A stretch of 64,000 nt of DNA from Ylistrum balloti. Taxonomy: Eukaryota. This document shows, in pieces, positions 1-3,000 of the stretch. Made by a program: the position numbers. The stretch is from the NCBI RefSeq assembly GCF_031769215.1, contig NW_026782409.1:1-64000 (forward strand), read 5' to 3'. Position 1 is the stretch's first letter; each line of letters begins with the position of its first letter.

Positions 1-3000
1 ACACAAATAAAATTGTCAAAGTGTTAATGCGATATATCTAATCACCTGCAAAAAATGTAACATTCAATATGTAGGGCAAACATCAAATACCATCAACACT
101 AGAATCAGAAACCATTTGTATGACATTTACCGCCAAGATATAAACAAGCCAGTCGCGGAACACTTCAACTCCAGCGGCCACAATAGCGATGACGTCACAA
201 TCACCGGAATCACGTCGGGGATCAGTGACATCAACATACGTTTGAGAACCGAAGAAAGCTGGATCTATACCCTGCAAACACAACGTCCGTGGGGCCTCAA
301 CATCGTAACTTAAGATATGGAGAAGAAAAGGAAGATAGAGAGAACACCAGTATGGAAACCCAGAATACCGTGTATATTATGCGGGAAATCTTATTCATGT
401 ATAGGAAACCTAAGAAGACACGTAAATAACGTACACGGAAACAAATCTACATGGTACAGGTGCAAAATCTGCAAAACGGCCTTTGGCCGTAAGGACAATT
501 ATGATAAACACTTAGCCAAAATGCACCCATACTATAAAATTGAACCTGAAATCTTTGAAGACAAAACCAGAAATGACTCCAGAAAAGCTGCGCAGACCAT
601 TCGAAAGTCTGACTAAGACCCAACTAGCAGCCGCTAAATTCCAGGTAAAACCTGCCTCAGGGATAACTACCGCTGGACCCGCCAGCAAATTCAGACCAGT
701 GATGGAAGAGGCAGTAGAATTGCTTAAAGAAGACCTTTACCTCAGCGACACCACAGATTCAAACAGTTCTATATCAGAAAAAATCAACTACAGGGATCTA
801 GCCTATGTATCAGAATCTAATCATACTATTTGTCTTGATGAAAGACCAGAAGAAATCTAAAGGAAGGTGACAGAAATAACAATAACGAACACTGTTAGAA
901 ATCTTTAAATTCATTTATTCAAAAGTTATACTTACTATTCTATATATGAACTGTGCTAAACTTACAGATATGCAAGATAACGGTTAATTGTCCATTACGT
1001 CACAGATAAAAGTTTTCCTCCCTGAAGGTACTTCAGGGATAAAATTTGTATAATATTTGTCCTGAAGAAGCCTCTGCGACAGAGGCGAAACTAGTCGACG
1101 AATAAAGTCAACACTCTTATTGGTAACGCGCGAGTATGTTGTGATTAATACCCTCTTCGTACATACTTCTTAGTTTTTGTTTAATCGCCCTGCATACCCT
1201 CTGGTATCCATACTCACAGCGAAGTACCCACCTAATACCCACTTACTCATACCTGACGTTGGCTCCTTCTCTTTGAAGTTACATAAGGATAGTACAACAT
1301 AGAGGGGTAACATATTCATACAATTGGACCTTTCTGCAACCTGACATACAGTGTAACGGTTGTTGCTTATGTTATACAAAAGACCAGCAACAACCGTTCT
1401 GAAGTACAAATGTTGAGTATTAACACAAGTTACAACAATGATAACATGTATGGCCTGAGTATCGAGCTTAACAAGTTACTCCTTCCACGGCCACACCAGG
1501 ACTGACTCTATTTGCTGTGATATTACAGTTTATCCTAAAGTAATTATAATCTAATTCTGATAGGGAAAGTGTCTTCTACTGATCTACAATTAAACCGTTA
1601 ACAGTTAATGTCTCAGTGGTGGAGAGCATGTCCAGCCAATGTTTCACGGCATGATTCTGACACTAAGGTGACCGCAATTAAACTATCTGTCTGACAAGTC
1701 AGCCGGTCACATTAAGATTTAACACAAATTATGTTCTACACTTGAGTGACAAATTTCACTATTAACAGAACCTCAATCCCTTATAGGTTACTTTATTTTG
1801 TTTGTGCAGCTGTTGTGGCAGGCAGAACATTTGCGATGCCCGATGGATTTACACGGATGCTAGTGATCTTGGTATTTGCGGGTGTTTGGGCACAAATTGG
1901 TTCAGTCATGGTTTCTCCCCGGATCATCTAAACTACCATATTACAGTTGGGGAATTACTTCCCATCGTCATTCCTGTTGAAATTTGGAATATATTTCTGC
2001 AGAATACTCGTATACAGTTTTTTTGTGACAATATGTCTGTTGTGCATATTATAAATAAGCATACTCCAAAGTACCCTGTTGTTATGAAACTAATGCGTAG
2101 GTTTATGGTTAGTGTTTTGAAATATAACATCTTATTTCAAGCAGTACATGTGCCAGGGTTACAGAATGTAGTGGCAAATTAGCTTTCTCACTTGCAGATG
2201 CCAGCGTTTTTCCGGGGATCTCCACACATGCGCAAGGAAGGGACATTCATCCTACCACATCTCGTGAACATCTAGAGGACACAGATTTTGCTAAACAGTG
2301 ATTTATCAGCATCTTCAGCTTCCTTCAGGTTTTGTTCAACAACATTTCCGAAAAGAACAAACGGTGCTACCACCCAATTTACAACACCTGTCAATGTTTA
2401 TATCACATCGCTATCGCACCAGGTTGGCCTCTGCAGCGGTCACTACATATGTTACCACCTTAGGTTATATTTTCAAGCTCGACAATTTTGAGGATATTAT
2501 GCAACATTTTGTAATAAAGAAACTATTACAAGGGTATCACAAACTGAAACATTCAGTGGATACCAGACTGCCAATTACGCCAGATGTCCTTTACAAATTG
2601 GTGGATTCACTCAATGCGGTTGCATCCTCCCACTTTCACAGTCTTGTTCAAGTCTATGTTTCTGTTAGCCTTCCATGCTTCTTACGGGTGGCAAAAATTA
2701 CATCTACTGGGACTCCTACTCGTCATACTTTGCAACAGGGACATGTCGAGATAATTCATAGCCAGTAAGTTAAATCATTGAAAATTGTCTTTCTTATTTT
2801 AAACACCACCAAGGTCAGTCGGGTACACATGTGGTACCTGCTAACTTGCAACAGCCACAATATTGTCCAGTATTAGCTATCCAAGATTACTTGCACAATT
2901 AAAAGCATGAAAGGGGAGATCAATCTCTTTTCATTCATGGATGGATCTGCCATCTCTAGAAATATTTTCACTTACGGTAAATTTCCGTGTTTAGTGCGCA

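What the first reader, a model, noticed from the sequence alone, without database searches (positions are those of the whole stretch)
314..1104. Penelope-like element with a C2H2 zinc-finger ORF between its endonuclease and ribozyme
Seen: an ATG 3 nt after the GIY-YIG stop opens two well-formed C2H2 fingers; an overlapping ORF runs to 860; the hammerhead follows about 190 bp later, with a similar A-rich coding strand throughout. Known: typical EN+ PLEs have a single RT-EN ORF, and the 3' region with the ribozyme forms the pseudo-LTR. Inference: the finger ORF is part of the element's pLTR and would be copied in front of the main ORF in tandem arrays, acting as an accessory DNA-binding gene translated by reinitiation or from ribozyme-cut RNA.
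Basis: partly seen in the sequence, partly recalled or inferred. Interest (0 to 1): 0.68.

Follow-up and report, generated by a model that had tools for sequence, protein, structure and literature searches.

The report
Penelope retrotransposon with extra zinc-finger gene
A decayed copy of a Penelope-like retrotransposon in an invertebrate (probably scallop-like) genome carries, between its endonuclease and its hammerhead ribozyme, a second gene for a small two-finger zinc-finger protein, which this class of element is not known to have.

Summary
Window 1-313 is the C-terminal GIY-YIG endonuclease of a Penelope-like element (PLE). Its TAA stop at 311-313 lies where the ORF ends (within a few residues) in 5 relatives whose C-terminus is seen. 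An ATG follows 3 nt later, in the same frame, and opens two canonical C2H2 fingers. A PLE-type minimal hammerhead lies at 1054-1104.

The two overlapping ORFs (317-616 and 540-860) are one gene of about 181 codons. In this copy it is broken by a frameshift within 579-595. A library of 1.84 billion proteins holds two intact relatives of 183 and 189 aa, 64% and 58% identical over the finger half. Both cover both halves, so the ORF is a conserved protein, not a chance frame.

The copy is dead. Besides the frameshift, the endonuclease has an in-frame TAA at 8-10.

I could not test whether the EN-ZnF-hammerhead linkage holds in other copies. Three more distant PLE loci lack the ORF; in one the hammerhead follows the EN stop by 152 nt.

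Best reading: a Neptune/Nematis-like EN+ PLE lineage acquired an ORF2 at its stop codon. The pLTR and translation ideas remain untested.

The parts
1..313 (+). C-terminal GIY-YIG endonuclease of the PLE RT-EN ORF, cut by the window's left edge. It has an in-frame TAA at 8-10 and its native stop at TAA 311-313.
   Evidence: Pfam PF01541 E 1.7e-8. It is 67% identical to P0001 and 83% to P0003, a Ylistrum balloti protein. Two Cys (CKKC) lie between the IYL and YVG motifs. Five relatives end ...GLNLIT, GLNLIS, GLNIMQ, GLNIIQ or GLNIRHGKN where the window reads GLNIVT*. At the TAA of 8-10, 6 of 6 relatives have a sense codon.
311..319 (+). Stop-start junction TAA GAT ATG. The second ORF starts 3 nt after the EN stop, in the same frame, with G at -3 and G at +4.
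   Evidence: Read directly from the sequence.
317..595 (+). First part of the zinc-finger ORF (frame of 317): a basic N-terminus and two C2H2 fingers at nt 371-436 and 461-526.
   Evidence: zf-C2H2_4 4.3e-10 and zf-C2H2 1.1e-6. tblastn places P0021 residues 12-92 on 353-595 at 68% identity. All 8 zinc ligands are conserved in the window, P0021 and P0048.
579..595 (+). Zone that holds the frameshift breaking the finger ORF in this copy.
   Evidence: The two tblastn segments of P0021 (frame of 317 up to 595, next frame from 579) overlap here. See also alignment A1.
579..860 (+). Second part of the zinc-finger ORF (next frame): a linker, a predicted helix, an acidic Ser-rich tail and a conserved TICLDE end. 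Stop at 858-860.
   Evidence: P0021 residues 90-181 map to 579-845 at 64% identity, and P0048 residues 102-188 to 591-842 at 53%. No Pfam family matches. In the AF2 model of P0021 there is a helix at 128-146 and the rest is below pLDDT 65.
861..1053 (+). AT-rich non-coding spacer between the finger ORF and the ribozyme. It contains TATATAT at 941-947 and a hairpin at 1014-1044.
   Evidence: Composition; inverted repeat I6; fold; sequence.
1054..1104 (+). Minimal type I hammerhead. Helix I is 1054-1061 paired with 1097-1104. The core CTGAAGA is 1062-1068, followed by unpaired A1069. Helix II is 1070-1076 paired with 1080-1086. GAAA is 1087-1090 and the palindromic CTAG is 1091-1094. The predicted cut is after C1096. 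AATAAA at 1101-1106 overlaps the 3' strand of helix I.
   Evidence: Descriptor scan and simulations; fold with z -4.3. The anatomy fits the PLE hammerheads described in PMC4209133, Results. Rfam gives only a weak match.

Best explanation
This is the 3' part of a defective copy of a canonical (C-terminal EN+) Penelope-like retrotransposon of the Neptune/Nematis type, in a TE-rich invertebrate genome whose closest named relative is a scallop protein. The lineage carries a second gene, ORF2, of about 181-189 codons, placed exactly at the stop codon of RT-EN and upstream of the usual 3' spacer and hammerhead.

ORF2 encodes a small protein with a basic N-terminus, two classical C2H2 fingers and a largely disordered acidic, Ser-rich tail.

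Inferred working:
- ORF2 is transcribed as the 3' cistron of the element's RNA. Its 3' end would be set by the hammerhead or by the AATAAA.
- It is translated by termination-reinitiation at the TAA-GAT-ATG junction.
- The protein acts as a nucleic-acid-binding accessory factor, in target DNA choice or in RNP formation.

Shown: the anatomy, the conservation of ORF2 as an open frame in two diverged relatives, and the defects of this copy. Inferred: that ORF2 belongs to the family rather than to this copy alone, its mode of expression, and its function.
For: - The EN stop is native. Five relatives whose C-terminus is seen (P0001, P0002, P0004, P0005, P0006) end within a few residues of the same position, four at exactly that residue. 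None of the 8 PLE relatives covers more than the EN half of an EN+X+ZnF query.
- The ATG at 317 lies 3 nt after that stop, and it aligns with the start Met of P0021 and P0048.
- ORF2 is conserved. P0021 (183 aa, E 6.7e-36, 64% identity) and P0048 (189 aa, E 1.3e-27, 58%) were the only two single-stretch short hits among the 150 listed. Both cover both halves. They are 51% identical to each other and both are open. All 8 zinc ligands are invariant.
- These divergences are of the same order as those of the EN to its relatives: 67, 62, 54, 52 and 52%.
- EN and ORF2 share the same strong A-over-T strand bias, which ends near 900.
- The spacing fits an insert at the stop. From the ORF2 stop to the hammerhead is 194 nt. 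In the ordinary PLE locus L003 the EN stop (3442-3444) is 152 nt from its hammerhead at 3596-3637.
- No direct repeat flanks ORF2 and no poly-A follows it.
- Relatives P0001-P0006 (6 of 6) carry C-x3-C-x2-C upstream of the GIY-YIG. That is the linker motif of Neptune/Nematis and is absent in Penelope/Poseidon (PMC8557442 passages).
Against: - Only one copy was seen, and it is dead. Nothing in 1-1300 recurs in the window.
- The genomic context of P0021 and P0048 is unknown, so they could be host genes.
- Searches of the 5.8-billion-protein set found no relative of either half: 54-174 aa for the finger half, 58-186 aa for the second half. The second search's range included the lengths of P0021 and P0048 yet missed them, so that tool's sensitivity was limiting.
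- 0 of 3 more distant PLE loci (46-49% RT identity) encode a relative of ORF2 at tblastn E <= 0.1.
- PLEs are known to capture host DNA at this very place. Pen1_Av has a spacer of 0.9-1.5 kb between the element body and the 3' pLTR (PMC3846280 section 6).
- Reinitiation after an ORF of more than 2 kb is usually inefficient (established knowledge). No supporting signal was looked for.
- Rfam does not recognise the ribozyme at gathering threshold.
Confidence: 0.6

Rival explanations
1. One-off capture. The finger ORF is host DNA, or a host mRNA copy, picked up by this copy or a small subfamily between the element body and its 3' pLTR, as in Pen1_Av of Adineta vaga. It has no role for the element. 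P0021 and P0048 would be host genes of related species.
For: PLEs capture unrelated host DNA at this position (PMC3846280 sections 6 and 9). 0 of 3 other PLE loci carry the ORF. The ORF is broken here.
Against: - A random capture would have to begin within 3 nt of a gene's start codon, in sense orientation, with the whole intronless ORF and no 5' UTR.
- The A-T skew of the ORF equals that of EN and differs from the flanks.
- The nearest relatives are only 58-64% identical. A recent capture should have a near-identical host parent, although the searchable sets may not hold this genome.
Confidence: 0.22
2. Read-through or fusion domain. Because ORF2 is in frame with RT-EN and separated by a single TAA, the fingers are made mainly as a C-terminal extension of a fraction of RT-EN molecules by stop-codon read-through. 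This would give the endonuclease an extra DNA-binding module for target choice.
For: Same frame and one stop codon, TAA GAT ATG. DNA-binding C2H2 arrays are the nearest solved relatives of the fingers. Zn-finger-like linkers of PLE ENs have been proposed to bias target choice (PMC8557442 passages).
Against: - The same frame is expected by chance one time in three.
- None of the 8 PLE relatives is fused to fingers.
- The two relatives are stand-alone proteins starting at the aligned Met.
- TAA is generally the least leaky stop codon (established knowledge).
- The frame in other copies is unknown.
Confidence: 0.1
3. Separate mobile element. The finger ORF belongs to a different small element that inserted into the PLE's 3' UTR, or the hammerhead belongs to another truncated PLE copy or a retrozyme-like repeat that merely lies downstream.
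For: The window is a mosaic of TE fragments. Solo hammerheads from truncated PLEs are very common in invertebrate genomes (PMC4209133 Results).
Against: No flanking direct repeat, terminal repeat or poly-A bounds 314-860. There is no room for a boundary between the EN stop and the ATG. The strand, the skew and the spacing to the hammerhead fit one continuous element.
Confidence: 0.06

Closest known systems
Canonical C-terminal EN+ Penelope-like elements, Neptune/Nematis type
   Same: [quoted passage not shown] The ORF ends at the same place as in relatives. A minimal type I hammerhead lies about 150-200 nt beyond the last ORF. The nearest relatives have RVT_1 plus GIY-YIG and the C-x3-C-x2-C linker (PMC8557442 passages; PMC4209133 Results).
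   Different: These elements are described as having a single RT-EN ORF (PMC8557442; PMC6431247). Here a second conserved ORF of about 181 codons sits between the EN stop and the 3' spacer.
Pen1_Av of Adineta vaga (EN+ PLE with a captured spacer before the 3' pLTR)
   Same: Extra DNA lies at the same position, between the element body and the 3' terminal repeat (PMC3846280 section 6).
   Different: Those spacers are 0.9-1.5 kb and differ between copies that are 90% identical; the section read describes no ORF in them. Here the insert is a compact ORF that abuts the stop codon and has diverged, intact relatives.
Athena/Terminon (EN-deficient PLEs) with ORF1 or accessory ORFs
   Same: PLE-clade RT elements that carry further ORFs and a 3' hammerhead (PMC6431247 passages; legend of fig. 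1 in PMC8557442).
   Different: Those lack the C-terminal EN and are telomere-associated. [quoted passage not shown] 'Zinc' does not occur in PMC6431247.
Bicistronic non-LTR retrotransposons with translationally coupled ORFs, and the R2 N-terminal C2H2 fingers (recalled, not checked in any call)
   Same: A small nucleic-acid-binding protein encoded beside the RT, a closely spaced stop and start, and C2H2 fingers used for target DNA binding.
   Different: In LINEs the accessory ORF is upstream of the RT. Here it is downstream. There is no sequence relationship beyond the generic finger fold.

Membership tests
Penelope-like element, canonical EN+ | PLE-type reverse transcriptase upstream of the EN in one ORF | not testable with these tools
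   The window starts inside the EN. The relatives found with the EN (P0001, P0005) have RVT_1 plus GIY-YIG.
Penelope-like element, canonical EN+ | C-terminal GIY-YIG EN with a CCHH motif whose two Cys lie between GIY and YIG | tested here: met
   PF01541 E 1.7e-8. The window reads IYLITCKKCNIQYVGQT, followed by His residues. The definition is from PMC8557442 passages.
Penelope-like element, canonical EN+ | Hammerhead ribozyme motif in the 3' terminal region (pLTR) | tested here: met
   Descriptor hit at 1054-1104, with 0 hits in 200 simulations; fold z -4.3. It is not called by Rfam at gathering threshold. Self-cleavage was not tested.
Penelope-like element, canonical EN+ | pLTRs or partial tandem and inverted copy arrangement | not testable with these tools
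   The 5' end is off the window. There is no second copy of 1-1300 in the window. RT-EN relatives hit only the EN at 2-310.
Penelope-like element, canonical EN+ | Single ORF | tested here: not met
   A second conserved ORF lies at 317-860. This is the respect in which it is a variant.
Neptune/Nematis clades | CX2-5CxxC Zn-finger-like linker upstream of the GIY-YIG | tested here: inconclusive
   The position is off the window. 6 of 6 closest relatives (P0001-P0006) have C-x3-C-x2-C there. No RT phylogeny was made.
Classical C2H2 zinc finger (PF00096 / PF13894) | C-x2-4-C-x12-H-x3-5-H with a conserved hydrophobic core; two units | tested here: met
   Both fingers are C-x2-C-x12-H-x4-H. Pfam scores are above the cut-offs. 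AF2 gives pLDDT 79-91 over residues 11-80 of P0021. Metal and nucleic-acid binding were not tested.
Type I minimal hammerhead of PLEs | CUGANGA and GAAA cores, helix I open, long helix II with an unpaired 5' nucleotide, and a 1-2 bp helix III with a palindromic loop | tested here: met
   Helix I is 8 bp, helix II is 7 bp, A1069 is unpaired and CUAG forms the palindromic loop. This was compared with the description in PMC4209133 Results.

The most novel reading that the evidence does not exclude
A lineage of canonical endonuclease-bearing Penelope-like elements in bivalves is bicistronic. It has fixed a downstream accessory gene for a two-finger C2H2 protein with an orphan acidic tail. The gene is translationally coupled to the RT-EN stop codon (TAA-GAT-ATG), and the protein takes part in retrotransposition, in target choice or in RNP assembly. 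As far as my searches reach, this would be the first accessory gene described in an EN+ PLE, and the first retrotransposon accessory ORF placed 3' of the RT.
Probability: 0.4. Interest if true: 0.6.

Novelty: new variant of a known kind. Interest (0 to 1): 0.47.

Why it matters
PLEs are the least understood major class of retrotransposons. Their integration mechanism, the role of the hammerhead and the way targets are chosen are all open questions.

Canonical EN+ PLEs are described as single-ORF elements. A conserved second gene would show that they can acquire and keep accessory functions, as LINEs, LTR elements and Terminons do. It would also give a tractable handle: a small DNA- or RNA-binding protein whose targets can be mapped.

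The 3-nt stop-start junction would be a compact natural case for studying termination-reinitiation in an invertebrate. If the ORF turns out to be a one-off capture, the finding is an ordinary example of PLE-mediated transduction.

Tried and rejected
- **Rfam.** The whole window at gathering threshold gave only 3 tRNAs. In E-value mode on 850-1300 the only hammerhead-type match was RAGATH-1 at 15.3 bits, E 7. I therefore relied on a descriptor of my own with simulations.
- **Other copies in the window.** blastn of 1-1300 against the window gave only the self-match. tblastn with 8 RT-EN relatives and the 2 ORF2 relatives hit only 2-310 and 353-845.
- **Word-indexed protein search.**
  - EN+X+ZnF against longer proteins gave 9 hits. 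Eight are PLE proteins that cover only the EN half; one is a fox poly-ZnF protein.
  - ORF A against proteins of 54-174 aa gave nothing.
  - ORF B against proteins of 58-186 aa gave nothing.
- **Cluster members of P0021, P0048 and P0001-P0003.** Sources, names and contigs of the two ORF2 relatives stay unknown.
- **Genome contigs (prokaryotic genomes only).** The ORF2 alignment matched 37 pattern stretches and none was confirmed. The RT-EN alignment gave 3 loci, none with ORF2.
- **ESM Atlas.** The whole P0021 returned only generic small C2H2 clusters. The C-terminal half returned no usable hit by features, and its structural rows were all below TM 0.4.
- **Pfam and PDB.** Pfam finds nothing in the second half. 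PDB sequence matches are limited to the fingers.
- **AF2.** The model of P0021 was built from a 4-row alignment, has pTM 0.32, and only the fingers are confident. I did not run a fold search on it.
- **P0010.** The top hit is 38 near-identical 83-aa repeats, each sharing only one finger with ORF2. I rejected it as a relative.
- **Possible second hammerhead.** A 20-nt, 85% similarity links the end of ORF2 (823-842) to the 5' half of the hammerhead (1050-1069). It is of the same quality as 10 other short repeat families in the same output, and no helix II follows it. I treat it as chance.
- **Possible SUMO-interaction motifs.** The tail DL[FAY]LSD plus Ser/acidic run and the terminal TICLDE looked like such motifs from memory. 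The fit to the consensus is poor and no tool here could test it, so I dropped the idea.
- **Literature.** Six searches found no paper describing a C2H2 or other ORF downstream of the EN in an EN+ PLE. 'C2H2', 'ORF2', 'second ORF', 'additional ORF' and 'downstream ORF' do not occur in PMC8557442.
- **Not available.** Supplements were closed. The consensus sequences in the supplementary files of PMC8557442, and Repbase entries, could hold such an ORF unremarked.
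Full report
**1. What is in the sequence**

The window opens inside a reading frame. From nt 11 it reads NCQSVNAIYLITCKKCNIQYVGQT... and ends ...RPWGLNIVT, followed by TAA at 311-313. Pfam places residues 7-90 of this stretch in the GIY-YIG catalytic domain (PF01541, E 1.7e-8). The two cysteines between the IYL and YVG motifs are the mark that separates endonucleases of Penelope-like elements (PLEs) from homing endonucleases, according to passages of PMC8557442.

A word-indexed search with the endonuclease (EN) plus the downstream ORF, reading the stop as X, returned 9 proteins. 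Eight are RT plus GIY-YIG proteins that match only the EN half of the query. The ninth is an unrelated fox poly-zinc-finger protein. The best are P0001 (67% identity) and P0003 (83% over 66 residues), which NCBI names as an uncharacterised protein of the scallop Ylistrum balloti.

The five relatives whose C-terminus is seen end ...GLNLIT, GLNLIS, GLNIMQ, GLNIIQ and GLNIRHGKN. The TAA at 311-313 is therefore the native end of the RT-EN ORF, not a mutation inside a longer frame.

The six closest relatives all carry C-x3-C-x2-C about 35 residues before the GIY motif. This is the linker motif of the Neptune and Nematis clades and is absent from Penelope/Poseidon. In the window that position lies beyond the left edge.

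**2. The finger ORF**

GAT follows the stop, and then ATG at 317-319, in the same frame as the EN. The ORF 317-616 (99 aa) has two fingers of exact C-x2-C-x12-H-x4-H spacing, at nt 371-436 and 461-526. Pfam scores them above its cut-offs: zf-C2H2_4 at 4.3e-10 and zf-C2H2 at 1.1e-6. The overlapping ORF 540-860 (106 aa, next frame) has no Pfam family.

An exhaustive phmmer search with the 99-aa ORF against 1.84 billion representatives gave 19,621 hits at E <= 1e-3. Nearly all of the 150 listed are long multi-finger proteins matched in many stretches. Two are different:

| Protein | Length | Stretches | Identity | E-value |
|---|---|---|---|---|
| P0021 | 183 aa | 1 | 64% | 6.7e-36 |
| P0048 | 189 aa | 1 | 58% | 1.3e-27 |

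Their sequences continue past the fingers into the translation of the second window ORF:

- P0021 residues 12-92 map to 353-595 in the first frame (68% identity).
- P0021 residues 90-181 map to 579-845 in the next frame (64% identity).
- P0048 behaves the same way.

The two ORFs are thus one gene of about 181 codons, broken in this copy by a single frameshift within 579-595. There are no other stops.

P0021 and P0048 are 51% identical to each other and both are open from Met to stop. All eight zinc ligands are invariant, as are a block RP-E-LTK-QL, a GP...RP..EEA motif, L-LSDS and a terminal TICLDE. An open frame kept at this divergence in two lineages is the signature of a protein under selection. 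It is not a dN/dS measurement, which needs DNA that I could not obtain.

An AlphaFold2 model of P0021, built from a 4-row alignment, is confident only for the fingers (pLDDT 79-91 for residues 11-80). It shows one helix at 128-146 and a disordered tail (pTM 0.32). PDB sequence matches are confined to residues about 6-72 and are all DNA-binding finger proteins: ZBTB24, CTCF, ZBTB17, ZBTB7A, BCL11A and the two-finger Tramtrack domain. The C-terminal half has no usable neighbour in the ESM Atlas.

**3. The ribozyme**

Rfam does not report a hammerhead at gathering threshold. In E-value mode there is only a 15.3-bit RAGATH-1-hammerhead match at 1043-1101, E 7.

Read by hand, the stretch 1054-1104 has these parts:

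- helix I, 8 bp (1054-1061 paired with 1097-1104);
- the core CUGAAGA (1062-1068);
- one unpaired A (1069);
- helix II, 7 bp, with a 3-nt loop (1070-1086);
- GAAA (1087-1090);
- a palindromic CUAG (1091-1094);
- UC, with the expected cut after C1096.

A descriptor with these elements found this one site in the window on both strands, and none in 200 first-order Markov simulations of the window. The RNA folds at -19 kcal/mol, against -8.1 +/- 2.5 for shuffles.

A long helix II with an unpaired 5' nucleotide, a short helix I and a tiny palindromic helix III are what the Results of PMC4209133 describe for hammerheads in PLE terminal repeats. That paper suggests these ribozymes act as dimers. AATAAA at 1101-1106 overlaps the 3' strand of helix I.

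**4. Is the ORF part of the element?**

Evidence within this copy favours yes.

- There is no room for a boundary between the native EN stop and the ATG, and that ATG aligns with the start Met of both database relatives.
- No direct repeat or poly-A brackets 314-860.
- The A-T skew is +0.27 to +0.40 in every 100-nt bin from 1 to 900, through EN and ORF2 alike. It lies between -0.25 and +0.19 in the bins from 901 to 2400.
- The distance from the ORF2 stop to the hammerhead is 194 nt. In locus L003, an ordinary PLE copy found with an RT-EN profile, the EN stop at 3442-3444 is followed by a hammerhead at 3596-3637, 152 nt later, with no ORF between.

The window therefore looks like a standard PLE 3' end with about 550 nt of coding sequence set in exactly at the stop codon.

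Evidence from other copies is lacking.

- No second copy is in the window.
- The only DNA collection open to me holds prokaryotic genomes. Its three PLE loci have RTs 46-49% identical to P0001, and none encodes a relative of ORF2: 0 of 3 at tblastn E <= 0.1.

**5. State of this copy**

The copy is defective in at least two places: the frameshift in ORF2, and an in-frame TAA at 8-10. At the TAA the window reads K-*-N-C, where 6 of 6 relatives have Ile, Tyr or Phe. It sits in a mosaic of other retroelement fragments. The three tRNA genes, one with a 20-nt insertion in the anticodon loop, fit a eukaryotic nuclear genome.

**6. How it most likely works**

*Shown:* the anatomy, and conservation of ORF2 as a protein.

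*Inferred:*

- ORF2 is the 3' cistron of the element's RNA.
- The stop and start 3 nt apart, with G at -3 and +4, suggest termination-reinitiation.
- The product, with a basic N-terminus, two DNA-type fingers and an acidic Ser-rich tail, is a nuclear nucleic-acid-binding accessory factor.

I put 0.6 on ORF2 being an integral gene of a PLE family. I put about 0.4 on the full chain that includes coupled translation and a role in transposition.

*Rivals:*

- One-off capture of host sequence, for which PLEs have a precedent at this very position: Pen1_Av spacers, PMC3846280 section 6, (0.22). What counts against it is the exact abutment to the start codon and the shared composition.
- Read-through fusion, suggested by the shared frame (0.10).
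- A separate insertion or an unrelated downstream hammerhead (0.06).

It would need a repeat of at least 790 bp, whereas the pLTRs described in A. vaga are about 180-220 bp. RNA trimmed at two successive hammerheads would carry ORF2 behind RT-EN, not in front of it (inference).

**7. Comparison with what is known, and novelty**

Passages of PMC8557442 and PMC6431247 describe PLEs in two forms. One has a single RT-EN ORF. The other has two ORFs and no EN; Terminons are of this EN-less (Athena) type and add many accessory ORFs, sometimes including a stand-alone GIY-YIG-like EN.

Six full-text searches found no report of an ORF downstream of the EN in an EN+ PLE. Supplementary consensus files and Repbase could not be consulted, so such an ORF may exist there unremarked.

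On present evidence this is a new variant of a known kind: an EN+ PLE with an ORF2. It is of moderate interest to specialists, and conditional on showing that the linkage is a family trait.

Noticed in passing
window 1802-2182, 23534-24241, 34637-35389, 39835-40491, 50041-52300, 53926-54759, 59094-63997: The window is a mosaic of retroelement fragments. There are RT_RNaseH domains (1802-2182, 23534-24241), a copia-type RVT_2 (34637-35389) and a DUF3504 ORF (39835-40491). There are also two LINE-like units, each with RVT_1, zf-RVT and an ORF bearing a zinc knuckle. One of them has a 992-aa APE+RT ORF at 59967-62948.
   Followed up: partly
window 46976-47048 (-), 49487-49576 (+), 55562-55634 (-): Three tRNA genes lie within 9 kb. 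The one at 49487-49576 has a 20-nt insertion in the anticodon loop, as in intron-bearing eukaryotic tRNA genes.
   Followed up: no
L001 and L002 (CBDBCZ010000018.1, 2.77-Mb contig), L003 (CBDDTI010000344.1): Contigs filed as bacterial MAGs, one labelled Nitrospirales, carry eukaryote-type PLE RT-EN copies, a PLE-type hammerhead and only short scattered ORFs around them. They look like eukaryotic DNA binned or labelled as bacterial. L001 also has an inverted EN fragment at about 4890-5036 upstream of the RT copy, the inverted arrangement described for PLEs.
   Followed up: partly
protein P0010 (top hit): A 3179-aa predicted protein made of 38 nearly identical 83-aa units (a 249-nt period). Each unit has one C2H2 finger about 45% identical to finger 1 of ORF2, followed by an acidic stretch. 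It looks like an open tandem array and shares nothing else with ORF2.
   Followed up: partly
window 823-842 and 1050-1069: The codons for the conserved C-terminal TICLDE of ORF2 are 85% identical over 20 nt to the 5' strand of helix I plus the core of the hammerhead (TTTGTC then TTGATGA, against TTTGTC then CTGAAGA). No helix II follows, and matches of this size are common in the same output, so it is probably chance.
   Followed up: partly
window 941-947 and 1014-1044: A TATATAT box and a 14-nt-arm hairpin (86% complementary, containing CCCTGAAG / CTTCAGGG) lie between ORF2 and the hammerhead. A TATA box in the pLTR was proposed as a promoter in A. vaga PLEs (PMC3846280 section 6). If it plays that role here, transcripts starting in an upstream repeat would not include ORF2.
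   Followed up: no
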